DNA from: an uncultured Gammaproteobacteria bacterium
GTDB taxonomy: Bacteria > Patescibacteriota > Microgenomatia > UBA8517
DNA length: 64,000 nucleotides
Assembly: GCA_964645605.1 (NCBI GenBank)
Contig: CAZYCE010000002.1
Span: 67,256-131,255 of the forward strand
Direction of reading: 5' to 3'
Shown here: piece after piece, positions 29,886-61,806 of the stretch
Numbering within the stretch: position 1 is the first letter of the stretch
Layout of the letters: each line of letters opens with the position of its first letter
The notes under the pieces: model-generated
What the model was told of the DNA's origin: nothing
Seen by the model: the letters and a program-made list of their open reading frames with translations, nothing else
Databases searched by the model: none
Translations under genes and position numbers: made by a program

Positions 29886-29904
29886 GGGTTAATAATACTA
29901 TAAA

Positions 29905-31714: not shown

Positions 31715-31724
31715 TGGTTAATAA

Positions 31725-35955: not shown

Positions 35956-36041
35956 CCCGTTAGAAATTCATACGCTATCGAGTGATCGTTTGAACTTTCC
36001 AAATTACTGTTTTTGATAATATTTTTAACGGGATTCATTCT

Positions 36042-37514
36042 TTAATGTACGATAGATTCCTTTAGGTCAATAATTATAAATTTATCTGTTTTTTCTATTG
36101 TTTTAAATCTTGACTCCACCATTTTTGTGTCGGCGCTTCCAAGGTCAACAGAAACATAATATGAGGCGCCTCGAGCAATTATGTTGTCTATTGAATCTTC
36201 CACCGCCGGCCAGCCCCATCTTTTTGTTTGATAAAGAAATGCCGTGTCGCCGTTATAGGGAGCCACAATTAATGCATCTTTTGGTGCAATTTTGTCTATT
36301 TCGGTACCGGCCTGAATGATTTCCGGGTGATTTACATTGTAATTTCCCACTATTTGATTCCAACCGGTGAAGAGCATAACTCCAATACTAATTGCAAGAA
36401 TTGTTCTGGACAAAATTTTATTAAAAATTTTGTTTTCCCATAGGTAGATGCTTCCGGAGGCAAGGGCCAGGGCTAATGCCGGAATAACCAAAATCTGGTA
36501 ATAATCATGCATTACATTGGCATCGGCAACCAGAACCACATAAAAAAGCGCACCTGCCAGAAATGCCTGAATAAACAAATTTTTAGACTTGGTATTTAAA
36601 ACCCCAAAAATAAACGGAATAAGCCCAAGTGAACCCAAAATAAGGTGTCCAAGTCTCTCCCCAAAAATCCAATACCACCATGACGGTTTGAACCTTATAT
36701 GGTTTCCATTAAACGCCCATTTATAAAAGGGGATTCCTTCAGGAAATTGTCCCTCCCACACGCGCCAAAGAAGAAATGGAATAAAAGAAATTGCCAGAAA
36801 AACCAAACTCCAAATTATGACTTTTTTGTTCTTATAAAAACTTTTGATTCCATACTTTTTGATAGCCAAATAGGCTATGGGAAACAAATAAAATCCCATA
36901 TAGGGTTTAATCAAAAGCGCCAAGGCCATAAAGGCGGCCGATATAAAGAAGTGAAGTTTCTTCGCGGATCCATAAAACTCCAAAAAGGCCCAGATTGAAA
37001 TTACGCCAAACATAGCCCCCATTGGGTCAGGCAAAATCGTGCGGGTAAAATAAATATTGAAAGGAATAAAAAGGTAAAAGAAGGCACTCAAAAGACCACC
37101 CCATTTATTCATGAGCTTCTTGCCTATTAGATAAATAAAGAATGCTGAAATTACTGCACAAGATATCGTAATAAGCCTGGCCCATACCTCAAGAGAGAAA
37201 TTGGTAAAAGTCTTGGCCAATATTGCATTGAGGGCATTGTAAAAAGGAAATTCGACCATTCTATAACCCTGTGGATTGGGGATTCCCGTCTGAATGCTTG
37301 AGACGTCATGATATCTGGGCAAAAGAAGGTTAATGCCCTGCTCCAGATACACCCTGCTAACGGAGGCTGTGTCTGCCTGACGCCAGGAATGCCAATCGGC
37401 TATCGGATTATTTATCTTATACAACCGGACCGTAAAGCCTAAAATAAGTATGACTGATAACAAAATATACTCAAAATGTTTACTCTTTATAAAACGTATA
37501 AGTTTAAGTTTCAT
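36042..37514 (-). CDS. GT-C fold polytopic glycosyltransferase (ArnT/PMT_2, GT39/83-like)
   Basis: 490 aa. The N-terminus VRLYKINNPIADWHSWRQADTASVSR is followed by about 11 TM helices. Confidence 0.6.
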   Translation of the reverse strand: MKLKLIRFIKSKHFEYILLSVILILGFTVRLYKINNPIADWHSWRQADTASVSRVYLEQGINLLLPRYHDVSSIQTGIPNPQGYRMVEFPFYNALNAILAKTFTNFSLEVWARLITISCAVISAFFIYLIGKKLMNKWGGLLSAFFYLFIPFNIYFTRTILPDPMGAMFGVISIWAFLEFYGSAKKLHFFISAAFMALALLIKPYMGFYLFPIAYLAIKKYGIKSFYKNKKVIIWSLVFLAISFIPFLLWRVWEGQFPEGIPFYKWAFNGNHIRFKPSWWYWIFGERLGHLILGSLGLIPFIFGVLNTKSKNLFIQAFLAGALFYVVLVADANVMHDYYQILVIPALALALASGSIYLWENKIFNKILSRTILAISIGVMLFTGWNQIVGNYNVNHPEIIQAGTEIDKIAPKDALIVAPYNGDTAFLYQTKRWGWPAVEDSIDNIIARGASYYVSVDLGSADTKMVESRFKTIEKTDKFIIIDLKESIVH

Positions 37515-38928
37515 TTAATCTATTTTTGATCAATACTACGGCACTACCCAGAAACATCCAAAACATTATCGCAAATTTTGACGCTTCAAACAAATCTATT
37601 AATAATGCTGTAGCCAGACTGCCAACTACACCACCAAATATACCAAAAAGCAAGCCTTTTTCCCAATTATCAAATTTATCTTTCGATTTATATGCCTTTG
37701 CGAAAATTTTCCCTATTCTCAAGAAAATCAGCGCAAAGGCCATCGTTCCAAGGATACCGGTTTCTCCAAGCATCCTAAGATAATCATTATCAGTTGCCAA
37801 TCCTATCGACGAATATCCTGTGCCCAGAAGCGGATTTTTCGCAAAAGCTCTTAAGGCTCTGGGCCATTCAACATTATATCTGATTGAAATCGATACATCA
37901 TTCACAATATTTACCGCCGTTGGTTTGGTAGACGTTGGTAAAGATATCGGGGTTGGTGATGAATCTACCCCGAGAATTATGGTCTTACCTTCAGCCTTAA
38001 CAACAAATCCGGGCACAATATATGAGATACCTCCCTTTTCCGAAATATGCTGATACAGGAACTTTATCGCCTGAGTAAACCTGGCATCAAGCCCCGACGA
38101 CATAAACATGCAAACTAAACTAATAAGTACAACTACTATCCAACCCTTAATTTTTTTCAAGAGTAGTAGCGTGATGGTTATTGCCAATAGATAAGTTGCC
38201 TGGGCAGTCCTTGAGACAGAATTTATTAAAAGCCAGAGCCCCATACCTGAAGAAAGTAGTAAAATAAGCTTCAATAATTTGTTCTTAAAGCTGAAAAATA
38301 ATCCCAAGAGTATTGGCATGACCAAAACCATAAAAGCCGAAAGGTCGTAATGTCCTGCAAAGGTAGAATTTATATGCGCTCCGGGGGTCCAGCGAAGCCC
38401 AATCCCTTTAGAATATTCTTCGTTTTGGGTAATTATTACCGGAAAATGATAGTATCGTTGTCCGATTCCATAAGCAAAAACAATTATCACAACAATTACC
38501 AGAACTTTCAGGTAAAATTGCAAATATTCTTTTATTTTTTCCCTGGGAGTCAGAAGATAGACCGCCAAAAACGGAATAATATATTCTATGCGCCTCGCCC
38601 AATGAAGAAAGCCCAGACGTAGCTCAAGGGTCTGCGTCAGGAATGCTCCGGCGATAAGGGAAATAAAAGTGGCGCCAAAAAATATCAGAATTGAGATTAT
38701 TATCTTGTCTTTCAGAATTTTCCTAAAATCTACTAGAAACTTAGGGACAAGAATTATGGCCAAAGCGAGCATCAGTAGGTCCTCAGATCTGATTGCCACA
38801 TAAGTTCCGGGTACTTTTATAAGCGGAAATTTCGGCAAAAGCGGAACAATTATTAGTACCGCCGCAACCAGGTACTTACTAATTTTTTCAGATAGATTTA
38901 AAAGCTTTCGCATAGATTTGTGAAACAT
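37504..38928 (-). CDS. O-antigen ligase / Wzy-like polymerase family membrane protein
   Basis: 474 aa, polytopic. LLINSVSRTAQATYLLAI resembles the Wzy_C/O-antigen ligase loop. Confidence 0.5.
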   Translation of the reverse strand: MFHKSMRKLLNLSEKISKYLVAAVLIIVPLLPKFPLIKVPGTYVAIRSEDLLMLALAIILVPKFLVDFRKILKDKIIISILIFFGATFISLIAGAFLTQTLELRLGFLHWARRIEYIIPFLAVYLLTPREKIKEYLQFYLKVLVIVVIIVFAYGIGQRYYHFPVIITQNEEYSKGIGLRWTPGAHINSTFAGHYDLSAFMVLVMPILLGLFFSFKNKLLKLILLLSSGMGLWLLINSVSRTAQATYLLAITITLLLLKKIKGWIVVVLISLVCMFMSSGLDARFTQAIKFLYQHISEKGGISYIVPGFVVKAEGKTIILGVDSSPTPISLPTSTKPTAVNIVNDVSISIRYNVEWPRALRAFAKNPLLGTGYSSIGLATDNDYLRMLGETGILGTMAFALIFLRIGKIFAKAYKSKDKFDNWEKGLLFGIFGGVVGSLATALLIDLFEASKFAIMFWMFLGSAVVLIKNRLNET

Positions 38929-39814
38929 TGCGCTTACCCACCACTCCCCAAATTGTCATCCTCAAAAAAACTCCTGTTTTAAGAATCGCACGAAGTACGG
39001 GGATTTTCCAACCCGGTTCGTGCTTTTTGTACATCAAAATCAGGTTCTGAAATTCATCGATTGTGGCTTTTTCACTCCCTGCGGTAACTTGTCCGAAATG
39101 AACTATCTTCCACTGCGGCAAATACCATATCTGCCAACCTTTTTTAATAAACCTCGCCGAAAGTTCCACCTCTTCAACATAAAGGAAAAAATCTTCATCA
39201 AAAATCCCCGCCTGGTCTAAAGCTTCTTTGCGCATAAGATAAAATGCACCGGTTACCCAATCTTGCTGATGAGGTTTTTTGAAAAAATTCTCGCCTTTAT
39301 AAACCGGCGAAAGGGAGTGCATAGGATGATACGGCTTGATTAATTTATCAATTCCCGGAATATCATCCAAAAAGCTCATCCAGGCGGCTACTCGCAAAAG
39401 GGTCGGGTAAAAACCCCCGGAACCTTGATATGTGGTTTCATCGGGATTAAGAAGCGCACATCCGGAAACGCCTGCTTTGGGATGCGCATCCATCCAGGCG
39501 ATCATTTCCCTGAGAATCTTGGGGTCGATAAGCTTTGTGTCATCGTTAAGAAGGAGAATATATTTGCCTTTGGCGATCTTTAAACCCATATTGTTGTTCT
39601 CGCCGAATCCTCCATTTTCCTCACGTCTCAAAACTTTTACTTGAGGGTACTTTTCCTTCACTAAAGCACCGATTTTATCAATTGATGCATTGTCAATTAA
39701 AATAATTTCACTCGTCAGCCCTTTTAAGGCCGGAGTAAGGGTTGTCAGACAATCAAACAGATAGTCTTTTTTTGAAGATACTATAATTACCGAAAGATCG
39801 GTGTGTTTATCCAT
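38888..39814 (-). CDS. Glycosyltransferase family 2 (GT-A)
   Basis: 308 aa. LSVIIVSSKKDYL and LLLNDDTKL (DxD). Confidence 0.75.
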   Translation of the reverse strand: MDKHTDLSVIIVSSKKDYLFDCLTTLTPALKGLTSEIILIDNASIDKIGALVKEKYPQVKVLRREENGGFGENNNMGLKIAKGKYILLLNDDTKLIDPKILREMIAWMDAHPKAGVSGCALLNPDETTYQGSGGFYPTLLRVAAWMSFLDDIPGIDKLIKPYHPMHSLSPVYKGENFFKKPHQQDWVTGAFYLMRKEALDQAGIFDEDFFLYVEEVELSARFIKKGWQIWYLPQWKIVHFGQVTAGSEKATIDEFQNLILMYKKHEPGWKIPVLRAILKTGVFLRMTIWGVVGKRNVSQIYAKAFKSI

Positions 39815-40352
39815 TTTTCTTTTTGAAAGTTTCTATATACTCACGAAATACAACGGCTGTCATAGTCATTGTAACCAAAAATATTACCTCCCTGACCCAA
39901 ATATTGCTCGGTACAAGGCGGATTATAATTTTTTGTTTCCAGGGTTTTCCGTCCACAAGAAATATTGGTTTATCCTCAAAACTGGGGGGTTCAAACCCAT
40001 TAATAAACATACTTTCTCTGAAAGGATGGGCATATTCCTGTAAAAAAGTACTGCCGGTTTGGTCCCTAATGATGGTCTGGGCATTTTCAGGCGGATAATT
40101 AAATAGAGATGTCGGAATTTTTAAGCCCAAAAAAGATGAGTGATCAAATTGACGCCCGTACCAATCCAGAACCTCCTGTCTCGTATAGTTTGTAAAATAT
40201 CCACGTCTTAGGGGAGATTCAAGGTCTGCCGGTTCCTGCGATTGTATGGAATCCGGAGGGGGCATAGGAAAGCTGTAATCCGGCAAGGCCAAATAAAAAA
40301 CTCCTGCGATACAGAAAAGTACGAAGAAAGCTGTTATAAATTTTTTAAACAT
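39807..40352 (-). CDS. Hypothetical membrane-anchored protein
   Basis: 181 aa with an N-terminal TM. Confidence 0.45.
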   Translation of the reverse strand: MFKKFITAFFVLFCIAGVFYLALPDYSFPMPPPDSIQSQEPADLESPLRRGYFTNYTRQEVLDWYGRQFDHSSFLGLKIPTSLFNYPPENAQTIIRDQTGSTFLQEYAHPFRESMFINGFEPPSFEDKPIFLVDGKPWKQKIIIRLVPSNIWVREVIFLVTMTMTAVVFREYIETFKKKNG

Positions 40353-40370
40353 GAGATATCAACAAATGAG

Positions 40371-40994
40371 TTATTGGAAAAGCCTTGCGCGCCCCAACTT
40401 ATAATCAGGATTTTTATTCTTCCGCTCTCCGATCTTTTCCGCGGGTATTCCTCCGACAATCGTGAATTCAGGCACGTTCTTTACAACAACTGCCCCGGCC
40501 GCAACGACTGCCCCTTTACCGATTTTCACTCCCGGAAGAATAATGGCTCTGGGACCGATAAAAACGTAGTCTCCGATCTCAACGGGTTCGGTTCTGGCGG
40601 AAAATTCTTCACTTTCAAGGTCGTGTTCTGAATTATAAATCATTACAGAGGAGGCAATATCCACATGATTACCAATTTTAAGGGGAGCCCGCCCGTCCAA
40701 AAAAGCGTGATCGCCAACTATCGTGTCCTGCCCGATGGAAATACCTGACGGGTCAAAAAAATTAGCCCACATATGAACAGTTGACCCTTTCCCGATTTTC
40801 ATACCGGCAAGTCTGTAGATGAATTTACGAAAGAAGTGGCACGGAACATGGGAAACCCAACGCAAGACCATGAGTTCAAAATCCAAAATAATGTTGCCTA
40901 TCCTATTTAGAATTTTAGATAACGCCTCTTGGTTTGATAATTTTTTGCCTGTTTTATCTGTAAACATCGTTAAATTACAAATCACAAATTTCAA
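40371..40994 (-). CDS. Hexapeptide-repeat (LbH) sugar O-acetyltransferase
   Basis: 207 aa. Tandem hexapeptide repeats (IGDYVFIGPRAIILPGVKIGKGAVVAAGAVV). Confidence 0.75.
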   Translation of the reverse strand: MKFVICNLTMFTDKTGKKLSNQEALSKILNRIGNIILDFELMVLRWVSHVPCHFFRKFIYRLAGMKIGKGSTVHMWANFFDPSGISIGQDTIVGDHAFLDGRAPLKIGNHVDIASSVMIYNSEHDLESEEFSARTEPVEIGDYVFIGPRAIILPGVKIGKGAVVAAGAVVVKNVPEFTIVGGIPAEKIGERKNKNPDYKLGRARLFQ

Positions 40995-41023
40995 GTTCTA
41001 AACAAGCACCAATCAACAATAAA

Positions 41024-42205
41024 CTATTTGTATTTTTGTTTATTGCTTGTAATTAAATTCTTGGAATTTGTCACTACTTTTAAGGTTTCTCTTGCAGTTT
41101 TCTCCCAGGAAAACTTTTTGGCCTGCGATAAACCTTCCATAACCATTCTATTATACTTCTCCTTCGGGGCTAATAGCACCTTTTTCATGCCTGTGGCCAT
41201 ACTATCTATGTCTTTCGGGTCAACGAGTACTCCCGCCGTTCCGACTACCTCAGGTAAACTGCCCACGTTTGAGGCAACTACGGGTACCCCCGAGGCCATC
41301 GCATTTAGGACATCGAGTCCAAAACCTTCCCAAAAAGACGGAAGCACAAAAACTTTTGCACCCGCAATAAGGCCAGGTTTGTCTTCCTCAGGTATGAAAT
41401 CCGTAAAAATAACATCATCTGTCAAACCTAAACTTTTAACTTTCTCAAAAATAGTCTCGTACATCCAACCTTTCTTTCCTGCTATAACAAGTTTTAAATT
41501 GCTAATTTGTTTATTGGTTCTTGGAATTTGTAATTTCAGTGCATGAAACGCACTGATTAATCCTTCAATATTTTTACTGGGCTTGAGCGTACCTAAATAC
41601 AAGACATAGTCATGAACTATGGAGTACCGGGACCCCACACGTCGCACATCTTTCTTGGAAATGCTTAAATTAAACTTAGCACTATCGTAAGCAAGTGGAG
41701 TAACGTAAATTTTGCCTTTTGCAAAGGGATAATGTCGTACAATGTCGTCTTTTGTACTATTTGATATAGCAAAGACTGCCTTTGATACAAAAATACTCAT
41801 AGCAGTCCATACTTTTAACTGCCAGAAGTCCTTTTTTCGAAATTGTCCCGAGAATTTGAGGTATCCAAGGTCCATAATTGAACATATTCTCGGTATCGGA
41901 ACCATTGGAGGAACGTAATGACTCGGAGAAAAGAAAACGTCGCATACTTTTTTGTTCTTTAAAAGGTACGGCACAAGTTTCGTCAAAATCCAGGCACCGG
42001 ATCCTCCAATCACAACATACCTAAAATACGGGGTTTCCTTCGGCATATCCCCTCTTGGTTCATTTTTGAGAAATACTATAAGTCTATGCTCATTTTTCCA
42101 TTCGTCTTGTAGTTTCCACATCCCCCAGAGCAATTCGAAGGCATAGGTGTTTACTCCTACCCTCTTTTCTATGTTAGCTTCGTTCCCGTCTATACCGACA
42201 ATCAT
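41024..42205 (-). CDS. Glycosyltransferase family 4 (GT-B)
   Basis: 393 aa. FWEGFGLDVLNAMASGVPVVAS. Confidence 0.75.
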   Translation of the reverse strand: MIVGIDGNEANIEKRVGVNTYAFELLWGMWKLQDEWKNEHRLIVFLKNEPRGDMPKETPYFRYVVIGGSGAWILTKLVPYLLKNKKVCDVFFSPSHYVPPMVPIPRICSIMDLGYLKFSGQFRKKDFWQLKVWTAMSIFVSKAVFAISNSTKDDIVRHYPFAKGKIYVTPLAYDSAKFNLSISKKDVRRVGSRYSIVHDYVLYLGTLKPSKNIEGLISAFHALKLQIPRTNKQISNLKLVIAGKKGWMYETIFEKVKSLGLTDDVIFTDFIPEEDKPGLIAGAKVFVLPSFWEGFGLDVLNAMASGVPVVASNVGSLPEVVGTAGVLVDPKDIDSMATGMKKVLLAPKEKYNRMVMEGLSQAKKFSWEKTARETLKVVTNSKNLITSNKQKYK

Positions 42206-44603: not shown

Positions 44604-44609
44604 CGAGGT

Positions 44610-49841: not shown

Positions 49842-49936
49842 AAAGCAAATTACTAATTTAAAATTCCTAATTACTAATAAAATCCCAATTAATAAATTTA
49901 AAAAATTCGAATTTTATTTAAATTTTAAATTCAAAA

Positions 49937-51223: not shown

Positions 51224-51276
51224 TCTACAATTATAGATGATTAATCCCTAATGGTTAATGGTGGTAAAATTAATGT

Positions 51277-53188: not shown

Positions 53189-53214
53189 CTGAAGCGCCAA
53201 TAAGTTCATTATCG

Positions 53215-54525: not shown

Positions 54526-56095
54526 TCTTTATTAGGAGTATTGCACCGGCATCCTGTTTCTCGTAATTATCGGCCGAACTGACCTTATACATTCCTTTCA
54601 ATGTGTATTCTCTTGCGATCTCGCCGCATCCTTCGCATGTCCATTTTTTGGAATCGGTAGGATTTTCAAAAATCATTCTCCAACTATCCCCCATATAATA
54701 ATTGGCGTCATCTATCAAATAACTTGTAAGATAAATTGCATCAAAAGGAATTTTGCCTGTTGCAGGATCTAACAACTGTTTCGGTTCCAACGGAAACCAC
54801 ACGGTTTTTCTTTCTCCGTACCAGCTTCCCCAAGTATCAAGATTGGTAATAACAACCTGGCCAGAATCCGTGTTCTCTTTCAGAATCCTGCTTAGTTCAG
54901 CATATACAGGGGGCTTGCCCGTATTGTGTATCTTTGCTTCAAACCTCGAGTCAAGCATGAATATACCTATTGTTTGACCAACGCCGAATAATAGAATTAT
55001 GAATAATGAATTAAGAATTATGCAGGCCTGTTTTGAAATTGAAAATTTTGATTTTGATAATTGATTGGTAATTGGTAATTGAAAATTGGTTATTAGTTCC
55101 ACGATTGTCCCCACCGCAATTATGTAAACAAATGGAATTACCGGATGAATATAACGGTAGAACGGAATACTGGCCGCCGTTACAATAAGTGTCACAACGA
55201 TCATGAACATGCTCGCCCATTTAAAAGCATGCCGTTCCGAAGCCTTTGGCGAAGGACGGAATAATCCAATGATAAACAAAGCTAAGAAATATGGGTTAAT
55301 GATTTGCGGAAGTGCTTTGTAAAAATTGTAGAGATTGTAAAAGATATTTTTCAGTGTTGGTACTATTCCCCCACCGGCAACAACTGCCGCTCCTCTTAAG
55401 GCATCTGATGCCGTAGAACTTTGGTTGAAAGACGATCCTATTCCCCTACCGATGATGGAATACAAAAAGTATTTTCCGGAAAGAGGCCTCAATACAAAAT
55501 AATCAATCAAAACTCCAAAAAACAAAATACAAATAAAGGAAATTACGGCTTTTTTAGGCTTAAAGTTTACAAGAAGCCAGAAAAGAATTATCCCCGCAAT
55601 ATAAATAAATGCCTGAGGACGGGTAAAATACATCAGAACCAAAAACAAAACTGTTACCGCATTCGTCCATTTTTTCTTGAGGGACGCAAAATAAAGTCCG
55701 GCAACTATTTCAAAAATAAATGGTGACTCGGAAGCACCGTTTGTAGCATAGTGAATAATGTCATAGCTTGCCCCAACTGCCAACGTCGACAAAGCTCCAA
55801 CCAATTTGCTATTAAATATTTTCTTTCCAAGAAGGTAGACAAAAACTAATGTCAGAATGAAATAGAAAAACGACGTAGCAATTACTGCAAAATCAGTAAC
55901 TCCAAAAATCTTAAAAAACGCAGCAATTGACACCGGCATTACAGGTGGTGTCCAAAGAGCAGAAAAGATAGCACTTTTAATTAATTCAAAAATATTTGAT
56001 GACCAAAATGAAAAATTGCTTCCAAATCCTAACCCATTAATTAAATTCCTGGCAAAATCCGCAAATTTGGCTGCATCAGAAAGGTCAAGATACAT
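54518..56095 (-). CDS. GT-C fold polytopic glycosyltransferase (ArnT/PMT_2-like)
   Basis: 525 aa. LDLSDAAKFADFARNLINGLGF is the ArnT-family N-terminus. About 11 TM helices and a C-terminal periplasmic-type domain. Confidence 0.5.
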   Translation of the reverse strand: MYLDLSDAAKFADFARNLINGLGFGSNFSFWSSNIFELIKSAIFSALWTPPVMPVSIAAFFKIFGVTDFAVIATSFFYFILTLVFVYLLGKKIFNSKLVGALSTLAVGASYDIIHYATNGASESPFIFEIVAGLYFASLKKKWTNAVTVLFLVLMYFTRPQAFIYIAGIILFWLLVNFKPKKAVISFICILFFGVLIDYFVLRPLSGKYFLYSIIGRGIGSSFNQSSTASDALRGAAVVAGGGIVPTLKNIFYNLYNFYKALPQIINPYFLALFIIGLFRPSPKASERHAFKWASMFMIVVTLIVTAASIPFYRYIHPVIPFVYIIAVGTIVELITNFQLPITNQLSKSKFSISKQACIILNSLFIILLFGVGQTIGIFMLDSRFEAKIHNTGKPPVYAELSRILKENTDSGQVVITNLDTWGSWYGERKTVWFPLEPKQLLDPATGKIPFDAIYLTSYLIDDANYYMGDSWRMIFENPTDSKKWTCEGCGEIAREYTLKGMYKVSSADNYEKQDAGAILLIKND

Positions 56096-56118
56096 AGATA
56101 GATTCTATCACCAACGTT

Positions 56119-57498
56119 TCACTTTTTGATTTTCTGTATTAAAAACAAAAATTTTCCCCTTTTAGAAAGAGGGATACTTCTAACATATTTAAACTTGACT
56201 TTTGTATCGGCTAATTTAAGAAACTTCTCATTAATTTCAAGTTTATCTTTTAGACCAAATAGCCTATCTGGAATTATTTTTATAATCACGATGCCTTTTT
56301 CTGACTGAATTATTTGCCATTTTTTGATGTTTCTAAAAGCTTTATAATGTTGACCAAAAACTAAGGCGGTTAAGGGTGTCTTGTCGCCACTTGAACCATA
56401 TATGTAATCTTGTGTTCTCCCTTGCAGTTCCCTCAGACAAACAACTCCGTTCTTTAGTCCTCCGTAAACTGCAATGTCACCGGTTCTATATCTAATAAAT
56501 GGCATAGCATAATTATAAAAGCCTGTTACCACAATCTCTCCTGCTGAACCCTTTTTAACATGCTTGCCCTTCTCATCCAGAATTTCAGTGAAACCATAAA
56601 ATGGTGAGCATAGATATTTGGTAGAATTTTTTAGGGTATAAGCAAAAACACAAGCTTCAGTATGGCCATATTGAAAAAATATATTTGTATCTAAAACTCT
56701 TGCTATTTTCTTAATTTGCCAATCAAAAGCCTGCTCAGATGTTAAAATTACACCTTTAATTTTGAATGAGATTTTGGCCTTCATAGAGTCGACATATCGT
56801 ACAAAATCGTAAATGGTTGATGGATACCCACGTATTAAACTTGGACATACTTTCAAAAAATCGGCTAAATACTGTGACTTGTTTTTATTTTTAAAATATA
56901 GAGATGAATATGTTTTTTTACCGAATGGTAAGTTGTGTTTATTACTTATCCAAAAAATATTTCTATTTCGCAGTTTAGAAGGAACAGAGCTACCGCTAAA
57001 AGAAATAAAAGAATCTCCTTTTCTATAACCAATATATTTGGCATAATATTCCTGATGAATATCATCTATTATCCCCACTTTGGGAGATAAAAAAAGTCGC
57101 AGTGGTTCGCCTGTGCTCCCACCTGTATATCCCTCATAGTATTCCCACGGCCTCAGACTTTTGGTTATTAATTCATCTTCATGTTTTCTAATTATTGTTT
57201 TATCAAGTATGGGAATACTATCAAAATTACTTAAATTATTTAAGTCAAGATTCACTTTTTGGAAAATTCTTTTATAGTATTCGTTATTTTTATACGCAAA
57301 ACGACAAAGATTAATTAATTTCTTTTTTTGAAAAGATTCAATACGCACTCTGATATCCTTGCCATTCTCAATGTCCTTAAGCCCCCTTTTAATTTTTAAT
57401 ATCTCTCTTTTGTAAAAAAATCTTAATCCTAACTTTGTAAAACATATCACATCTAACAGAGAATTTTGTTTCAAAAAATCTATAAATCTTCTATTCAT
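56119..57498 (-). CDS. PaaK/CapK-like adenylate-forming enzyme (phenylacetate-CoA ligase family, COG1541-like)
   Basis: 459 aa. YTGGSTGEPLR (AMP-binding motif I), YGHTEA and YRTGD (motif II-like). Confidence 0.65.
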   Translation of the reverse strand: MNRRFIDFLKQNSLLDVICFTKLGLRFFYKREILKIKRGLKDIENGKDIRVRIESFQKKKLINLCRFAYKNNEYYKRIFQKVNLDLNNLSNFDSIPILDKTIIRKHEDELITKSLRPWEYYEGYTGGSTGEPLRLFLSPKVGIIDDIHQEYYAKYIGYRKGDSFISFSGSSVPSKLRNRNIFWISNKHNLPFGKKTYSSLYFKNKNKSQYLADFLKVCPSLIRGYPSTIYDFVRYVDSMKAKISFKIKGVILTSEQAFDWQIKKIARVLDTNIFFQYGHTEACVFAYTLKNSTKYLCSPFYGFTEILDEKGKHVKKGSAGEIVVTGFYNYAMPFIRYRTGDIAVYGGLKNGVVCLRELQGRTQDYIYGSSGDKTPLTALVFGQHYKAFRNIKKWQIIQSEKGIVIIKIIPDRLFGLKDKLEINEKFLKLADTKVKFKYVRSIPLSKRGKFLFLIQKIKK

Positions 57499-57541
57499 TC
57501 CTTACAAAAAATATCCCTTACTGATATTGGCATATAAATAC

Positions 57542-58768
57542 TTATTGCTCTAATTCCATATTAAAATATTTAAGATATATCTTAACAGTATTATCTATTT
57601 TATATTTGAAATTGTGTTTAGATGCTTTTTCATTAAGCAAGTTGCAAATACAATTAATACATTTTTGATTAGAAGAACCCTCCTCTAATAGATGGTTTCT
57701 ATTAATTTCCGCAGAACCCGTATTGTTGAATGCTAAAACAGTCAAGCCACACGCCAGTGCCTCCAGATTTGCCATGCTTGCATTTTCCATAGCAGAAGTC
57801 ATAAAAAACAAATTGGAAGCACTATAATATTTAGCTAAATTCTCAGGATTTTTTTGATAAGGACGATAAAGAATATTTTTATCTTGTATCTCTTTGTTTG
57901 TTCTACCCAAACAAACAAATAATAAATCCTTGTTATTGCGCAATGAATTGGACACTCTCTTAAATATTTCGAATCTTTTTTTTCTGTCATGTTTATTACC
58001 GCTATAGATACCCAAAATTATTTTTTTGTCTAACGGCAAATTTAGACTTTTTCTTGCAAGTTTTTTGTCTGTCGGGTGAAATATTTTCGTGTCAACACCA
58101 TTTTGAATAACACCCATTTTCTTGTCACCAAAGATATTAGTACTTTCCGCAACACCTTTGAGCCATTTGGAAGGTGAAATAATTCTAAAATTGCTTTCTT
58201 TATAAATATCATGTTTACGTGTCCATAAATATTTCGAGTTATTCCAAAGCATTGGTTGATAGTGATAAATTCCCGAAGTAAAGTGCTTACCATGATTAAA
58301 GTGCTTACATTCAAAACAAAAGCCACAATGAGATGTCATTGACCACATGTCGTGTAGGGTCCAAACAACCGGCTTCCGCTTTGTTACTTCAATTAGCGTA
58401 GATAGTTTAAAATAATGACCATGCAAATTGTGGATGTGAACAATATCCGCCCCCTTAAACCACGGATGATTAATAATTTCGTGTGAGGCTCCAAAATCAA
58501 TATCATTTGAAAAAATAAAAGCTCTCAAGTGCCTGAGGTAGCGCAGAACATTATTCCCGAAAATATTTCGGATGAATTCTGAAAATATGCTTGCTGAGAT
58601 TACATCGACATCCGACGATTTTGTATATTTATAACCAACCAGATATCTAACCTGGTTCCCTTCTTTTCTAATTTTATTTCCCAATTGCCAAGCTAAATTT
58701 GCTGCCCCACCTATTGCGTCAGTTGTATTTATAATTAATATTTTCATAATATTATTTTTTTGCAACAA
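57542..58768 (-). CDS. Glycosyltransferase family 4-like (GT-B)
   Basis: 408 aa. MENASMANLEALACGLTVLAF (E-x7-E). Confidence 0.6.
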   Translation of the reverse strand: MLQKNNIMKILIINTTDAIGGAANLAWQLGNKIRKEGNQVRYLVGYKYTKSSDVDVISASIFSEFIRNIFGNNVLRYLRHLRAFIFSNDIDFGASHEIINHPWFKGADIVHIHNLHGHYFKLSTLIEVTKRKPVVWTLHDMWSMTSHCGFCFECKHFNHGKHFTSGIYHYQPMLWNNSKYLWTRKHDIYKESNFRIISPSKWLKGVAESTNIFGDKKMGVIQNGVDTKIFHPTDKKLARKSLNLPLDKKIILGIYSGNKHDRKKRFEIFKRVSNSLRNNKDLLFVCLGRTNKEIQDKNILYRPYQKNPENLAKYYSASNLFFMTSAMENASMANLEALACGLTVLAFNNTGSAEINRNHLLEEGSSNQKCINCICNLLNEKASKHNFKYKIDNTVKIYLKYFNMELEQ

Positions 58769-59492
58769 TGAAGATATGCGTTGAGATCAACCTATTACGA
58801 ATACCAATTTTGGCTAGTAGTAGACCTACAAAATTTAACCCATATGTAAGAATTCTCAAAAATGGAGACCTTTCAGAAATAGATTCTAGCCAAACCAGTT
58901 TGCCACTTACATAAAATACTTTATACGATTCGGGTTTTAACGACCCCACAATTTTTTTCAAACTTTGGATGTTCATAGAATTTAGATTATGAGTCTTAAT
59001 ATTATCTGGATCAAACAAAATTTGGTATGCTCCATTTAAACCCAAAAAATTTGGCAATCCGATTATCATGCTTCCACCCTGAGAAACCAGTTGCCAATGT
59101 TTATTGATTACATCATTTGTATCGTTAAAATGCTCAATAAAACCCAGAGAAAAAACAAGATCGTATTTTTTAGATGTTTTATATTTAAAAAAGTCAGTTT
59201 CGGAAATATCTATATTGCCACAAGGCAAACCATTTACTTCAACATTTTTACCAATAATCCCCCGATCTACCACAAAATCAAGAATTGTCGATTTGTAACC
59301 AAAATATTTACTAAAATAGATGGCATAGTTCCCAGGAAAACCTCCAATTTCAATCATGTTTTTGTAATTTTTATTTTTTAGATACTTTTCAAAAATATTG
59401 TTAAAGCTAAAAATTCTTGAAATTTTTTGTACATGCGGCTTGCTACTCCAATATTTTTTCCAAAAAGCGATGTCTGTAAGTTCTTTGTTCAT
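58752..59492 (-). CDS. Class I SAM-dependent methyltransferase
   Basis: 246 aa. MIEIGGFPGNY (motif I) and DLVFSLGFIEHF (motif II/III). Confidence 0.65.
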   Translation of the reverse strand: MNKELTDIAFWKKYWSSKPHVQKISRIFSFNNIFEKYLKNKNYKNMIEIGGFPGNYAIYFSKYFGYKSTILDFVVDRGIIGKNVEVNGLPCGNIDISETDFFKYKTSKKYDLVFSLGFIEHFNDTNDVINKHWQLVSQGGSMIIGLPNFLGLNGAYQILFDPDNIKTHNLNSMNIQSLKKIVGSLKPESYKVFYVSGKLVWLESISERSPFLRILTYGLNFVGLLLAKIGIRNRLISTHIFIVAKK

Positions 59493-60388
59493 TATAAATT
59501 TCCAAACATGGATTTCGCTAACAAGGATAATACTACAAACGGATTCATGTATACATTTCTCTCCGTAACCAAATCAGCCTTTTTATTTTCAACTATGTTG
59601 TTCGGATGTTTCAATGGAAAATTTATTTTTTCAGTTTTCATCCCCATTGTTCTTATCTTAAAAAAAGTATGAGTCGCCTGTTTCCCGTACCCGGTATTTG
59701 AAACAAGATTTACTTTCGGAATGATGGTCAATTTTTGATTTTTAAACGCAGTATATGACCAAATGTATGCCCAGGAATTAATTTCACCTTGATAAACCAA
59801 TTTAAATATTTGTTTCCAATACATTACTGAAAATATATTTTGAAAATAATTTTGGAAACTCTTATCTTTACTAATAACGAGCCAGTCTTTCATTGAGTCG
59901 TCATATAACTTCCAACCTCTCCTCCATGTTGCCCATCCCCAAGAATGTACATATTTTGAAAAATAGTAACTTTCTTTAATTTTTGTCTTTCCAAATTGAA
60001 AATTATTTCCGGAAATAGATATTATTTCATCACTATCTTTATACTTTTCAAGAAGTTCGTCGCAAAACTTGAAAAAAGATTCATCGATTGTCAAATCATC
60101 CTCCAGAATGATGGCTCTATCAACACTCTTAAACACCCAATCGAGCCCATTTACCATATTTCTTCTTAAACCATTATTTATTTTAGAATACCTTTTATGT
60201 ATCGTACAATTCCAGTCTATTTTTTCAACTTCGTTCCTGGCCTGTCTACATTTGCCGAAATCCGTATCATCTTTTGGTCCATCAGCAATAACATAAATAG
60301 TTTTAGGTTTAATATTCCGTAGAACATCAATAATTTTTTTCGTCAGGTATGACCTATTATAAATAATTAAAACAATTGGGGCTTTCAT
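59492..60388 (-). CDS. Putative GT-A fold glycosyltransferase (DxD-like ILEDDL)
   Basis: 298 aa. IVLIIYNRSYL, ILEDDL and HSWGWATWRRGW. Confidence 0.45.
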   Translation of the reverse strand: MKAPIVLIIYNRSYLTKKIIDVLRNIKPKTIYVIADGPKDDTDFGKCRQARNEVEKIDWNCTIHKRYSKINNGLRRNMVNGLDWVFKSVDRAIILEDDLTIDESFFKFCDELLEKYKDSDEIISISGNNFQFGKTKIKESYYFSKYVHSWGWATWRRGWKLYDDSMKDWLVISKDKSFQNYFQNIFSVMYWKQIFKLVYQGEINSWAYIWSYTAFKNQKLTIIPKVNLVSNTGYGKQATHTFFKIRTMGMKTEKINFPLKHPNNIVENKKADLVTERNVYMNPFVVLSLLAKSMFGNL

Positions 60389-60417
60389 TTGGTTATTACG
60401 CTATCCAAAATTATCTT

Positions 60418-61806
60418 TTAATATTTTATTCCACCTGATAACTTTCTATAAAAATTAAAAATTACCAAAAAGGTCGATATCAGAACCAATACTTTCCAGA
60501 ATATACTAAACTTATCCAGAGATCCACCTAGGGCTGAAAAATCTGTATAGGATGATATTAATCTGTAAAATATTGTTCCACCAAAAAATATTAATAAATA
60601 AAACAAACAAAACAATAACAACAAAGACACTTCCTTTCCCATTTTTAATTTTGTTAAATATAGAAAAACACATATAAAAAGAATTGGTATCAGCATATCT
60701 AATATCACAGAGTTAAAAACCATTACAAAGGAGTCTGATATTGTTTTTAGACTAAAATTATATAAATAGGCAGACAGTTTGGTCACAAAACTAAACTGAG
60801 ATATGCGCAACTTATCAAATTCAAAACTATAATAGGATAAATATTTTCCGGATGCATATCCCACAAAATAGTTAGAGGTTAAAAATATAAGAAGACCAAC
60901 CAAATAACGTTTTTTAAATAACAATCTCTTAACCAGCAGATAAATTATTAAGAACACAAGTGCAGCCATCCATATGGGTTCATTTCGGGTAAATCTGCTA
61001 AAGACGAAAAACAAGCTACCCAAAACCAGGTAATTTATTTTTTCCCTAGATAACCATTTAACTAAATAAAGAGTGCCTAAAACCAAAAAGGTTGACTGAA
61101 TTAAATTTGATGATACACGTACTGACCAATCGTAAAATAACGGATAAAAAGAAATCAGAAATGCTAAAGCTAAGCCAACTTTTTTATTCGTTAAATTTTT
61201 AGCAAATGCGTAAACCCCAAAAATCAGAGATAAAAATATCAAAGTATAAATGAATTTGGGGTTGGTACTTCCAGCAACATATAAAATTGAATGCATGAGA
61301 GAAGTCAAAAGAGGATAAGAAATGTCATAAAAGGACCGGGCGGAAAAAAATATACTTTGGGCGGTAACAATTAATTTTGCTCTATAGTCATACATCTGGA
61401 CAGCGTCCCACATCCAGATGGGCCAATATAAATTTCTAATAATAGAGGTCAGCAAGAAAAATCCTATGCCACCAACAGAAACCTTCTCAAATAAGTCTAA
61501 ATTTTTAAAAAATTTGATGGGGAAAAAATCATGTAATGAATATTTGTTCTTTAATATAATTTTATTGACCAGAATCAAAATTAAATTCCCCGTTACCAAG
61601 AAAATAAAAACGTTTTGAAAATTAAATTTATAACCGATAAAGCCAAGAAGAAAAAGCCCAAAAGTTGTGAGTCCAATTCCCAACATAAAACCTGAGGATA
61701 ATTCTTCCGCTAATCCAGACTTAATTCTAAACAATTTAAAAAAATTAATTCCCGAAAACAGAATCATTAAAAGAAACAATGTTTGTTTTAAAATATTTAA
61801 TATCAT
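60418..61806 (-). CDS. Polytopic membrane protein (GT-C or O-antigen-polymerase-like, tentative)
   Basis: 462 aa, about 12 TM helices. Very AT-rich. Confidence 0.45.
   Translation of the reverse strand: MILNILKQTLFLLMILFSGINFFKLFRIKSGLAEELSSGFMLGIGLTTFGLFLLGFIGYKFNFQNVFIFLVTGNLILILVNKIILKNKYSLHDFFPIKFFKNLDLFEKVSVGGIGFFLLTSIIRNLYWPIWMWDAVQMYDYRAKLIVTAQSIFFSARSFYDISYPLLTSLMHSILYVAGSTNPKFIYTLIFLSLIFGVYAFAKNLTNKKVGLALAFLISFYPLFYDWSVRVSSNLIQSTFLVLGTLYLVKWLSREKINYLVLGSLFFVFSRFTRNEPIWMAALVFLIIYLLVKRLLFKKRYLVGLLIFLTSNYFVGYASGKYLSYYSFEFDKLRISQFSFVTKLSAYLYNFSLKTISDSFVMVFNSVILDMLIPILFICVFLYLTKLKMGKEVSLLLLFCLFYLLIFFGGTIFYRLISSYTDFSALGGSLDKFSIFWKVLVLISTFLVIFNFYRKLSGGIKY

What the first reader, a model, noticed from the sequence alone, without database searches (positions are those of the whole stretch)
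36042..61806. Expansion of polytopic GT-C (ArnT/PMT-like) paralogs
The GT-C-like ORFs are 36042-37514 (WHSWRQADTA), 43257-44603 (SIWLDEATTALAA), 45446-46780, 47593-49029, 51980-53188, 53215-54525, 54518-56095 (LDLSDAAKFADFARNL) and 60418-61806. Each has ~400-525 aa and 10-12 TM helices. At least three carry ArnT/PMT_2-type N-terminal signatures. Eight or more lipid-linked-sugar-dependent transferases in one locus is unusual. This fits systems that decorate a protein or polymer with several distinct sugars on the outer face of the membrane, as in mycobacterial Emb/Aft or protein O-mannosylation.
Basis: inference. Interest (0 to 1): 0.55.

Follow-up and report, generated by a model that had tools for sequence, protein, structure and literature searches.

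The report
Eight membrane glycosyltransferases in one glycan locus
A tiny-genome Woesebacteria (CPR) bacterium carries a surface-sugar gene cluster of at least 34 kb, running off the window's edge, that contains eight very different membrane-embedded GT-C glycosyltransferases; this arrangement is shared by its relatives and probably lets the cell add several different sugars to its surface glycan from outside the membrane.

Summary
All eight ORFs exist. Six match Pfam PMT_2 above its gathering score. One matches PF19528 (DUF6056, now named GT_STM0557_N after the Salmonella GtrC glucosyltransferase). The eighth (51980-53188, + strand) has no Pfam hit but is a homolog of 60418-61806, and 9 of 27 members of their joint alignment, which includes 60418-61806 itself, hit PMT_2.

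Each family keeps acidic residues just after its first canonical helix. An AlphaFold model of the DUF6056 member best resembles STT3, ArnT and AftB, not transporters.

This is not a recent paralog burst. The proteins share at most 28% identity, and most have orthologs in other Woesebacteria.

They sit in a Wzx/Wzy-type glycan locus: a phosphoglycosyl transferase, ManC, twelve cytoplasmic glycosyltransferases, a flippase and a Wzy_C protein. The locus lies next to peptidoglycan genes and an LCP gene. Its 14-gene core is syntenic across Microgenomates, and the GT-C-rich part varies.

The closest analogues are the multi-component transmembrane glycosylation systems (Gtr, CsbB/YfhO, SccN/M). Donor sugars and the acceptor (wall polysaccharide or protein) remain inferred.

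One new detail: the two GT-Cs that lack an outer domain are always preceded by a gene for a membrane-anchored outer-domain protein. Natural fusions of the two exist, which suggests a split GT-C.

The parts
36042..37514 (-). GT-C 'A' (490 aa), the conserved-core member. It has a C-terminal outer domain of ~100 aa.
   Evidence: PMT_2 53.7 bits and PMT 28.6 bits. 73 orthologous loci across Microgenomates at 34-78% identity. D40, D48, E88 and H336-D337-Y338-Y339 are invariant in 70 or 35 sequences.
43257..44603 (-). GT-C 'B' (448 aa), with a D33-E34 motif directly after TM1.
   Evidence: PMT_2 47.9 bits. D33 and E34 invariant in 26-29 orthologs. hhalign to the A family 98.6%.
45446..46780 (-). GT-C 'C' (444 aa ORF; called as 424 aa, so the likely start is at 46720).
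   Evidence: PMT_2 29.4 bits. hhalign to the A family 98.0%. The acidic residue at position 64 is conserved as E or D in 9/9 sequences. Called length.
47593..49029 (-). GT-C 'D' (478 aa ORF; called as 469 aa).
   Evidence: PMT_2 41.1 bits. hhalign to A 97.0% and to C 96.2%. E39 and D133 invariant in 16 sequences.
51277..51987 (+). 'Z' (236 aa): 2-3 N-terminal membrane helices plus an outer domain of ~140 aa of unknown fold. Proposed partner of GT-C 'E'.
   Evidence: No Pfam, NCBIfam or PDB match. Homolog of X. Always immediately upstream of an E/H-type gene. Fused to one in P0211 and P0216.
51980..53188 (+). GT-C 'E' (402 aa; called as 392 aa). All-membrane core with no C-terminal outer domain and a W120-D121...D127 motif after its fourth helix.
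   Evidence: No Pfam hit. Blastp to H: E 4e-18. 9/27 alignment rows hit PMT_2. hhalign to the C family 84.8%. AlphaFold pLDDT 85 and pTM 0.89. Foldseek inconclusive.
53215..54525 (-). GT-C 'F' (436 aa), DUF6056 / GT_STM0557_N (GtrC-type).
   Evidence: PF19528 76 bits, named GT_STM0557_N. AlphaFold pLDDT 94.7. Foldseek top hits are STT3, AftB, ArnT and PimE. D34 and D35 are >=90% conserved and E170 is invariant in 45 sequences.
54518..56095 (-). GT-C 'G' (525 aa). It starts directly at the S-D-x-A-K-F-x-D-x-A-R-N motif with no TM1.
   Evidence: PMT_2 31.4 bits. hhalign to A 90.8% and to B 90.0%. D7 and D13 conserved in 4/4 sequences. TM1 is absent in 3 of 4 homologs.
60418..61806 (-). GT-C 'H' (462 aa), paralog of E, without a C-terminal outer domain.
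   Evidence: PMT_2 33.8 bits. Blastp to E: E 4e-18. Hydropathy.
61803..62816 (-). 'X' (337 aa): 4-5 membrane helices plus an outer domain. Paralog of Z and proposed partner of H.
62813..64000 (-). 'Y': a polytopic membrane protein cut off by the window end.
   Evidence: NCBIfam LIC_10190 family, 110 bits against a cutoff of 100, matching profile positions 157-422. No profile link to the GT-C families.
37504..38928 (-). Wzy_C-family polytopic protein (474 aa): a polymerase, ligase or O-oligosaccharyltransferase type.
   Evidence: PF04932 42.1 bits. Conserved next to A in 72 loci.
49937..51223 (-). Wzx/MOP-type flippase (428 aa).
   Evidence: Polysacc_synt 85 bits and Polysacc_synt_3 48.5 bits. 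MOP flippase family.
44610..45449 (-). GT2 'c' (279 aa) between GT-Cs C and B. Candidate polyprenyl-phosphate sugar synthase.
   Evidence: Glycos_transf_2 120 bits. Two predicted C-terminal membrane segments at 218-272. Its 67%-identical ortholog in L076 sits next to a DUF2304 gene. Against this role, similarity to ArnC, DPMS and GtrB covers only the N-terminal ~110 aa.
29905..30582 (-). Initiating phosphoglycosyl transferase (225 aa).
   Evidence: Bac_transf 205 bits.
30560..35955 (-). ManC-like nucleotidyltransferase, then GT4, GT4, GT2 and GT4 (the 3' half of the conserved core).
   Evidence: Pfam. Synteny.
38888..43275 (-). GT2b, the unknown 181-aa membrane protein V, a hexapeptide acyltransferase, GT4d and GT4e (the 5' half of the conserved core).
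   Evidence: Pfam. Synteny.
46677..47615 (-). GT4f, lying between GT-Cs D and C.
   Evidence: Glycos_transf_1 90.6 bits.
49005..49841 (-). GT2d, upstream of GT-C D.
   Evidence: Glycos_transf_2 52.2 bits.
56119..60388 (-). Low-GC variable block: a CapK/PaaK-like adenylating enzyme, GT4g, a methyltransferase and a GT25-like protein.
   Evidence: CapK_C. GC is 0.30-0.32 from 56 kb to the window end, against ~0.40 earlier. A relative carries different genes at this position.
27891..29885 (-). DUF4012 protein (664 aa), the conserved terminal gene of the core.
   Evidence: PF13196 85 bits. Present in 48-49 related loci.
21570..22619 (+). LytR-CpsA-Psr (LCP) family protein. A possible ligase that attaches the glycopolymer to peptidoglycan.
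   Evidence: PF03816 119 bits.

Best explanation
The region is the variable, GT-C-rich half of a Wzx/Wzy-type surface-glycan gene cluster of at least 34 kb in a Candidatus Woesebacteria (Microgenomates, CPR/Patescibacteria) bacterium.

Shown by tool results:
- Eight polytopic proteins belong to GT-C-type families: six PMT_2, one GtrC/STM0557-type DUF6056, and one PMT_2-related.
- Each family keeps conserved acidic residues just after the helix that corresponds to GT-C TM1.
- The genes are interleaved and translationally coupled with cytoplasmic GT2 and GT4 genes.
- They sit beside a phosphoglycosyl transferase, a Wzx flippase and a Wzy_C protein.

Inferred mechanism:
1. A lipid-linked oligosaccharide is built on the cytoplasmic face by the phosphoglycosyl transferase and up to twelve GT4, GT2 and GT25-like enzymes.
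2. Wzx flips it across the membrane.
3. The Wzy_C protein polymerises or transfers it.
4. The GT-C enzymes then add further sugars on the outer face, each from a polyprenyl-phosphate sugar and each with its own specificity. This is the way Gtr, CsbB/YfhO, Csd and SccN/M systems work.
5. The product ends up on the cell wall (an LCP gene and the peptidoglycan genes are adjacent) or on surface proteins.

The set of GT-C genes differs between relatives, so it probably sets strain-specific surface glycan structure.

Two of the eight (E and H) are minimal membrane cores. They most likely work as split enzymes with the separately encoded outer-domain proteins Z and X.
For: GT-C identity:
- Pfam hits for seven of eight, with the eighth linked by homology.
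- Family profiles link A, B, C, D, G and E/H.
- The F model best matches STT3, AftB, ArnT and PimE; transporters score TM ~0.12.
- PF19528 carries the name of Salmonella STM0557, whose operon adds glucose to O-antigen galactose.

Catalytic motifs conserved:
- A: D40 and D48, 70/70
- B: D33 and E34, 29/29
- D: E39, 16/16
- E/H: D121 and D127 invariant
- F: D34 and D35 at >=90%
- C: acidic at position 64, 9/9
- G: D7 and D13, 4/4

Pathway context: Bac_transf, ManC, 7 GT4, 4 GT2, Wzx, Wzy_C, an acyltransferase, a methyltransferase, an LCP protein and an adjacent Mur/Ddl/FtsI cluster.

Organism and conservation:
- 73 related loci were found. The informatively labelled ones are almost all Microgenomates/Patescibacteria; many carry implausible non-CPR labels.
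- The 14-gene core is syntenic, and the B/C/D region varies.
- Two relatives carry six or seven GT-C genes in the same order.

Split-enzyme idea:
- E and H alone lack a C-terminal outer domain.
- A Z/X-type gene directly precedes an E/H-type gene in all 8 complete pairs examined: window x2, L077, L078, L079, L080 and L081 x2.
- Two divergent natural fusions, of 759 and 781 aa, carry an E/H-type N-terminal part (E 1.6e-31) and a Z/X-type C-terminal part (E 2.3e-36).
- A review explicitly speculated that small GT-Cs may need a second, acceptor-binding protein.
Against: - No enzyme activity, donor or acceptor is shown.
- No clear polyprenyl-phosphate sugar synthase was found in the window. The four GT2 proteins are generic. 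GT2c resembles ArnC, DPMS and GtrB only over its first ~110 residues.
- No GtrA-type small flippase was found in the window.
- Profiles of A, B, E/H and F found no solved GT-C structure by sequence.
- Alignment of the A profile to E. coli ArnT is in register at the motif but not significant (5.8% probability).
- Foldseek for E was inconclusive, and the E-values for F are weak (7e-3 or worse).
- F has no profile link to the other seven.
- The Z/X outer domain has no detectable similarity to the C-terminal domains of the other GT-Cs.
- The fusions could have arisen at the junction of tandem modules, so which partner pairs with which core is not settled.
Confidence: 0.6

Rival explanations
1. The locus is a general protein O-glycosylation system. 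The Wzy_C protein would act as a PglL/PilO-like O-oligosaccharyltransferase. The PMT_2 proteins would glycosylate S-layer, pilin or other surface proteins rather than a wall polysaccharide.
For: PF04932 (Wzy_C) is the ligase/O-OTase family (that it includes PglL and PilO is from my own knowledge). CPR bacteria are thought to lack an outer membrane (my own knowledge), which would leave no lipid A-core acceptor for a WaaL-type ligase. A also matches the PMT protein-mannosyltransferase model (28.6 bits) and weakly matches archaeal STT3 and Agl23. ManC in the locus suggests mannose.
Against: An LCP gene and the peptidoglycan genes lie next to the locus, as in wall-polymer loci. No acceptor protein gene is evident. 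F belongs to a family named after a polysaccharide-modifying GtrC. The two models are not mutually exclusive.
Confidence: 0.25
2. Some or most of the GT-C-like proteins are not monosaccharide transferases. They would instead be polymerases or ligases acting on polyprenyl-diphosphate oligosaccharides, in the manner of Wzy, WaaL or STT3, with one for each of several glycans made by the locus.
For: F's best structural matches are STT3 subunits, which transfer oligosaccharides en bloc. No dedicated monosaccharide-donor synthase was identified. Each GT-C alternates with cytoplasmic GTs.
Against: Only one initiating transferase and one Wzx flippase lie in the 34 kb. A dedicated Wzy_C protein is already present. 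As far as I know, characterised bacterial PMT_2 members and GtrC use monophosphate-linked single sugars (and my own knowledge).
Confidence: 0.1
3. The proteins are transporters or other non-enzymatic polytopic proteins, and the PMT_2 matches come from hydrophobic composition.
For: Several PMT_2 scores are only a few bits above the threshold: 29.4, 31.4 and 33.8 against 26.1. Foldseek for E found nothing significant.
Against: Four other polytopic proteins of the locus do not hit PMT_2. Family profiles link to each other at 90-98.6% probability. MFS structures match the F model at TM ~0.12, against 0.37-0.44 for GT-C enzymes. Conserved acidic motifs sit at the expected position.
Confidence: 0.03

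Closest known systems
Multi-component transmembrane glycosylation systems of cell-wall polymers and O-antigens: GtrABC; CsbB/GtcA/YfhO; L. lactis CsdAB/CD/EF; S. mutans SccN-SccM and SccP-SccQ; S. pyogenes GacI/J/K/L
   Same: A polytopic GT-C (often PMT_2, sometimes with no Pfam hit) has an acidic motif in an outer loop, is encoded next to a GT-A/GT2 gene inside or near a wall-polysaccharide locus, and adds single sugars outside the membrane. F falls in the Pfam family named after Salmonella GtrC STM0557. A Wzx-type flippase can substitute for GtrA.
   Different: No clear Und-P-sugar synthase or GtrA is present. The GT-Cs alternate with GT4 as well as GT2 genes. Two of them are split from their putative outer-domain partner. 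The host is a CPR bacterium of ~0.8 Mb (genome sizes).
ArnT (GT83) and the Pfam PMT_2 family
   Same: Six proteins pass the PMT_2 gathering score. The N-terminal motifs of A, B and G align in register with the ArnT W-x-P-D-E-T-R-Y-A-E-I-S-R segment (and direct reading of the sequences).
   Different: The profile-to-ArnT comparison is not significant (5.8% and 1.4%). There are no Arn pathway genes and no lipid A. The proteins are shorter, at 402-525 aa against 550.
Mycobacterial Emb/Aft/PimE cell-wall GT-C enzymes
   Same: Many GT-C enzymes cluster near cell-wall genes and build or decorate a peptidoglycan-linked glycan from polyprenyl-phosphate sugars (my own knowledge). AftB and PimE are among the structural matches of F.
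   Different: No Emb/Aft Pfam family was hit. There are no large carbohydrate-binding C-terminal domains. The backbone pathway here is Wzx/Wzy-type.
Protein O-mannosyltransferases (PMT, GT39)
   Same: A passes the PMT model (28.6 against 22.7 bits). B has a D-E motif after TM1. ManC is in the locus.
   Different: Only one of the eight touches PF02366. No MIR domain was reported. No polyprenyl-phosphate mannose synthase was identified.

Membership tests
GT-C superfamily (Pfam PMT_2 PF13231 / PF19528) | Profile match above the curated gathering score | tested here: met
   Six proteins match PMT_2 at 29.4-53.7 bits against 26.1, and F matches PF19528 at 76 against 27. E itself has no hit, but 9/27 rows of the E+H alignment do, and E aligns to H at E 4e-18.
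GT-C superfamily (Pfam PMT_2 PF13231 / PF19528) | Polytopic membrane protein (8-13 helices) | tested here: met
   Hydropathy gives 7-11 segments per protein. The AlphaFold models of E and F are almost all helical. No dedicated topology predictor was available.
GT-C superfamily (Pfam PMT_2 PF13231 / PF19528) | Conserved acidic residue(s) in the first extracytoplasmic loop after TM1 | tested here: met
   A: D40/D48. B: D33/E34. C: E/D64. D: E39. E/H: D121/D127. F: D34/D35. G: D7/D13. All are conserved across orthologs. The outside location is inferred only from positively charged N-termini, not measured.
GT-C superfamily (Pfam PMT_2 PF13231 / PF19528) | GT-C fold in three dimensions | tested here: inconclusive
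GT-C superfamily (Pfam PMT_2 PF13231 / PF19528) | Uses a polyprenyl-phosphate-linked sugar donor | not testable with these tools
   Needs biochemistry.
Multi-component transmembrane glycosylation system (Gtr / CsbB-GtcA-YfhO type) | Adjacent GT-A enzyme that makes the polyprenyl-phosphate sugar | tested here: inconclusive
   GT2c has a GT2 domain plus two predicted C-terminal membrane segments, and its ortholog neighbours a DUF2304 gene. However, it resembles ArnC, DPMS and GtrB only over ~110 N-terminal residues, and its best PDB hit is chondroitin synthase. The other GT2s are generic.
Multi-component transmembrane glycosylation system (Gtr / CsbB-GtcA-YfhO type) | GtrA-type small flippase | tested here: not met
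   No GtrA family hit in any ORF scanned (only ORFs of >=150 aa were scanned), and the genes are packed with no room for a small ORF. A Wzx-type flippase is present, and the review accepts this as an alternative.
Wzx/Wzy-dependent glycan pathway | Initiating phosphoglycosyl transferase, MOP flippase and Wzy-type protein in one locus | tested here: met
   Bac_transf 205 bits, Polysacc_synt 85 bits and Wzy_C 42 bits. No recognisable chain-length regulator. DUF4012 is unassigned.
Mycobacterial Emb/Aft arabinosyltransferases | Match to the arabinosyltransferase families and a large C-terminal carbohydrate-binding domain | tested here: not met
   No such Pfam hit at E<=0.01. The C-terminal outer parts are only 65-145 aa.
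Protein O-mannosyltransferase PMT (GT39) | PF02366 match, MIR domain and protein acceptor | tested here: inconclusive
   Only A passes PF02366 (28.6 bits). No MIR hit. The acceptor is not testable.

The most novel reading that the evidence does not exclude
Woesebacteria and related CPR bacteria use a modular set of GT-C enzymes as a combinatorial surface-glycan code. The set includes a previously undescribed split GT-C, in which the catalytic membrane core (E/H family) and a membrane-anchored outer domain of unknown fold (Z/X family, ~500 clusters in public data) are separate proteins that are fused in some lineages. The outer module would supply acceptor recognition. Swapping modules would change the glycan that mediates attachment to hosts or escape from phages.
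Probability: 0.3. Interest if true: 0.6.

Novelty: new variant of a known kind. Interest (0 to 1): 0.42.

Why it matters
CPR/Patescibacteria have genomes of about 0.8 Mb and lack many biosynthetic pathways. Yet this lineage spends at least 34 kb (roughly 4% of such a genome) on about 20 glycosyltransferases, eight of which act from within the membrane. Part of the locus is conserved across Microgenomates.

Their surface glycan is therefore probably central to their biology, for example attachment to hosts or phage and predator avoidance. It is also completely uncharacterised.

The locus offers a compact natural collection of very divergent GT-C enzymes for structural and specificity studies. 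The conserved pairing, and occasional fusion, of a minimal GT-C core with a separate outer-domain protein makes a testable case for an open question raised in the field: whether small GT-Cs need a partner to recognise their acceptor.

Tried and rejected
- Sequence or profile searches of the PDB with A (single sequence and profile) and with profiles of B, E/H, F and Z found no relevant solved structure.
- I tested the idea that Z/X is the detached C-terminal module of a D-type GT-C. A 5-sequence profile gave 30% probability. This fell to 3.6% with 30 sequences, so I rejected it as sequence evidence. The link now rests on synteny and fusions.
- I tried to assign the GT2 genes to the Und-P-sugar synthase class. 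NCBIfam, PDB and a direct comparison with E. coli ArnC showed only generic N-terminal GT2 similarity.
- A DUF2304 (GacJ-type) partner gene was sought in the window by tblastn and not found.
- hhalign of the A and B profiles against E. coli ArnT was in register but not significant.
- Rfam and tRNA scans for taxonomic markers found nothing.
- I tried to extend the locus beyond 64 kb and complete protein Y. The look-ups returned only short or shorter Logan contigs.
- The promoter and terminator scan was not above chance.
- Five literature searches found no paper describing GT-C or PMT_2 enrichment in CPR, Patescibacteria or Woesebacteria.

Full report
**What is there**

ORF listing confirms all eight reading frames at the stated coordinates. 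I label them as follows:

| Label | Coordinates | Strand |
|---|---|---|
| A | 36042-37514 | - |
| B | 43257-44603 | - |
| C | 45446-46780 | - |
| D | 47593-49029 | - |
| E | 51980-53188 | + |
| F | 53215-54525 | - |
| G | 54518-56095 | - |
| H | 60418-61806 | - |

Pfam places A, B, C, D, G and H in PMT_2 (PF13231) above its gathering score of 26.1 bits, with scores of 29.4-53.7 bits. A also passes the PMT model. F matches PF19528/DUF6056 at 76 bits, and E matches nothing, even at E<=5.

E is nevertheless a homolog of H (28% identity over 239 aa, E 4e-18). Nine of the 27 rows of the E+H alignment individually hit PMT_2 and no other family.

Four other polytopic proteins in the same locus do not hit PMT_2: the Wzx flippase, the Wzy_C protein, X at 61803-62816 and Y at 62813-64000. 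Hydrophobic composition therefore does not explain the matches.

**How related are the eight?**

They are only distantly related. All-against-all BLASTP gives at most 28% identity (E-H). A-B is 26% (E 3e-7), several pairs show nothing, and F has no link at all.

Profile-profile comparison used orthologs collected from related genomes. It links:
- A-B at 98.6% probability
- A-C at 98.0%
- A-D at 97.0%
- C-D at 96.2%
- B-D at 94.7%
- C-E/H at 84.8%
- G (as a single sequence) to A and B at about 90%

F links to none of them.

So these are ancient branches of one superfamily, not a recent burst of paralogs. The only visible duplication is of a two-gene module, described below.

**Fold and catalytic motif**

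The AlphaFold model of F, built on 45 homologs, is confident (pLDDT 94.7, pTM 0.93). Its best PDB matches by Foldseek are:
- STT3 subunits of oligosaccharyltransferase (probability about 1.0, TM 0.37-0.42)
- AftB (TM 0.43)
- ArnT (TM 0.44)
- PimE

MFS and other transporters match at TM about 0.12. The E-values are weak (7e-3 at best), so I count this as supportive rather than decisive.

Sequence profiles of A, B, E/H and F found no solved structure. A profile-to-E. coli ArnT comparison aligned the A motif in register with ArnT's W-Q-P-D-E-T-R-Y-A-E-I-S-R segment, but at only 5.8% probability.

Every family keeps acidic residues just after the helix that corresponds to GT-C TM1:

| Family | Residues | Conservation |
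|---|---|---|
| A | D40, D48 | 70/70 |
| B | D33-E34 | 29/29 |
| C | E or D at 64 | 9/9 |
| D | E39 | 16/16 |
| E/H | D121, D127 | invariant |
| F | D34, D35 | >=90% of 45 |
| G | D7, D13 | 4/4 |

The N-termini before these helices are rich in Lys and Arg. That places the motifs outside the membrane; this topology is inferred, not measured.

**Organism and context**

A scan of one genome per species with protein A returned 73 loci. Those with informative labels are nearly all Patescibacteria of the Microgenomates group. Candidatus Woesebacteria are closest (72-78% identity), and Levy-, Ames-, Shapiro-, Roizman- and Pacebacteria follow at 34-46%. The complete or near-complete genomes among them are 0.74-1.14 Mb.

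The window's first 20 kb encodes peptidoglycan and division genes: Ddl, MurI, a MurB-MurD fusion, Mur ligases, GlmU, GlmS, MurA, FtsI and MraW. An LCP-family gene follows.

From 27.9 kb to the window end, almost everything is on the - strand and tightly packed or overlapping. The genes, in order of rising coordinate, are:
- DUF4012
- a small Bac_transf phosphoglycosyl transferase
- ManC
- GT4, GT4, GT2, GT4
- A
- Wzy_C
- GT2
- an unknown 181-aa membrane protein
- a hexapeptide acyltransferase
- GT4, GT4
- B
- GT2
- C
- GT4
- D
- GT2
- a Wzx/MOP flippase
- Z and E (inverted, on the + strand)
- F
- G
- a CapK/PaaK-like adenylating enzyme
- GT4
- a methyltransferase
- a GT25-like protein
- H
- X
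- Y

That makes eight GT-C proteins, twelve cytoplasmic glycosyltransferases and one initiating transferase in about 34 kb.

**Conservation**

tblastn of every locus protein against the 73 loci shows a conserved core. The block from DUF4012 to the second GT4 upstream of A (window 27891-43275) is syntenic across Microgenomates. B, C, D and their flanking GT2 and GT4 genes come and go or change order.

Within 36 loci of at least 20 kb centred on A, the number of GT-C genes is distributed as follows:

| GT-C genes per locus | Loci |
|---|---|
| 1 | 12 |
| 2 | 7 |
| 3 | 16 |
| 4 | 1 |

Two relatives were examined around their F orthologs.
- GCA_964635715.1 has the order X-like, H-like, GT25-like..., G, F, Wzx, GT2, D, GT4, C, GT2, B, GT4, GT4. 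That gives seven GT-Cs once A is counted.
- The 785,860-bp genome AP024680.1 has at least six GT-Cs in 21 kb.

A GT-C-rich locus is therefore a trait of this lineage, not a peculiarity of this genome.

The region between H and G differs between genomes. The relative has FdtA and DegT aminosugar genes there. In the window this region coincides with a fall in GC from about 0.40 to about 0.30. Both features fit a variable, exchangeable part of the locus.

**A split GT-C?**

E and H are the only two of the eight that end in membrane helices with no outer C-terminal domain. Each is immediately preceded by a gene for a protein with N-terminal membrane helices and an outer domain of about 140-170 aa. 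These are Z (51277-51987) before E and X (61803-62816) before H.

Z and X are homologs (E 3e-9). They have no Pfam, NCBIfam or PDB match.

The same adjacency holds in every relative examined: L077, L078, L079, L080 and twice in tandem in L081. At least ten longest-contig lengths are shared between the E-homolog and Z-homolog hit lists, consistent with the two families lying on the same contigs.

A full scan of 1.84 billion cluster representatives with the Z/X profile found 499 proteins at E<=1e-3. Most are 280-350 aa long. Two are much longer (759 and 781 aa), and each carries an E/H-type GT-C core at the N-terminus (E 1.6e-31) and a Z/X-type region at the C-terminus (E 2.3e-36).

Conserved adjacency plus natural fusion supports the idea that the two proteins work together. 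It matches a speculation in the literature that small GT-Cs may need a second, acceptor-binding protein (PMC8035078).

Two caveats apply. I found no sequence similarity between Z/X and the C-terminal domains of the other GT-Cs. The fusions may also have arisen at the junction of tandem modules.

**Mechanism**

The best-supported reading is a Wzx/Wzy-type pathway whose product is further glycosylated outside the membrane by GT-C enzymes, each using a polyprenyl-phosphate sugar. This is how the following systems work:
- Salmonella GtrABC: the STM0557-0559 operon adds glucose to O-antigen galactose (PMC3688519)
- CsbB/GtcA/YfhO, and the Csd pairs of Lactococcus (PMC8035078)
- SccN-SccM and SccP-SccQ of S. 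mutans (PMC11754754)

The family assignments, motifs and gene context are shown. The donors, the acceptor and the order of steps are inferred.

The weakest link is the donor. None of the four GT2 proteins is clearly a polyprenyl-phosphate sugar synthase. GT2c is a candidate for two reasons. It has two predicted C-terminal membrane segments, and its ortholog in AP024680.1 sits next to a DUF2304 gene. From my own knowledge, DUF2304 is the family of GacJ and Rv3632, which partner such synthases.

No GtrA-type flippase is present in the window.

The acceptor could equally be a protein. Wzy_C-family enzymes include protein O-oligosaccharyltransferases (my own knowledge), and A touches the PMT model. 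I rate that rival at about 0.25.

**Novelty and score**

The individual enzymes are new, very divergent members of known families. The number and density of GT-Cs, their regular alternation with cytoplasmic transferases, their setting in a roughly 0.8-Mb CPR genome, and the split core-plus-partner module amount to a new variant of a known kind of system.

Five literature searches found no description of this in CPR bacteria, though the searchable library is incomplete. Nothing here contradicts established mechanisms, and no function is demonstrated. Interest is therefore moderate (0.42).

Noticed in passing
window 3033-5354 (- strand): A single 773-aa ORF combines MurB (FAD_binding_4 plus MurB_C, residues 22-331) with a MurD-like Mur ligase (residues 349-747). 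This is an unusual fusion of two peptidoglycan precursor enzymes.
   Followed up: no
window 27891-43275: A 14-gene glycan core is syntenic across Woese-, Levy-, Shapiro- and Pacebacteria. It runs DUF4012, phosphoglycosyl transferase, ManC, 2 GT4, GT2, GT4, GT-C A, Wzy_C, GT2, an unknown 181-aa membrane protein, an acyltransferase and 2 GT4. It looks like a clade-wide envelope glycan pathway that has not been described.
   Followed up: partly
window 56000-64000: GC falls from about 0.40 to 0.30-0.32 over the block that holds the CapK-like enzyme, GT4, methyltransferase, GT25-like protein, H, X and Y. A relative has different genes (FdtA, DegT) between its H-like and G genes. The Logan assembly of the same run breaks at about 57.84-58.03 kb, but one intact GT4 ORF spans the gap.
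   Followed up: partly
window 54518-56095: GT-C G begins directly at its catalytic-type motif with no first transmembrane helix. Two close homologs are the same; a more distant one (L077, 535 aa) has the helix. How the N-terminus reaches the outer face is unexplained.
   Followed up: partly
loci L002, L004, L006, L014, L036, L037 and others: Many MAG records that carry this Microgenomates-type locus at up to 78% identity are titled 'uncultured Gammaproteobacteria', 'Alphaproteobacteria', 'Methylomirabilota' or 'Pacearchaeota'. These are probably wrong taxonomic labels in the public records.
   Followed up: no
L076 15248-15637 (AP024680.1): A bAvd/23S_rRNA_IVP gene sits between the Wzx flippase and the GT2-GT-C genes of a related genome. 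This is the accessory protein type of diversity-generating retroelements. It could be a nearby DGR.
   Followed up: no
window 51223-51277: The Z-E module is inverted relative to the rest of the locus and is absent at this position in the relative L075. The 53-bp divergent gap contains a sigma-70-like site (TTAACC-17-TATAAT) facing the Wzx gene, although such sites are not enriched over chance in the region.
   Followed up: partly
P0179, P0204, P0250, P0287: Some Z/X-family proteins (458-495 aa) carry two or three tandem copies of the N-terminal membrane segment (the Y-x-N-Y-V-F-S-x-F-H motif) before the outer domain.
   Followed up: no
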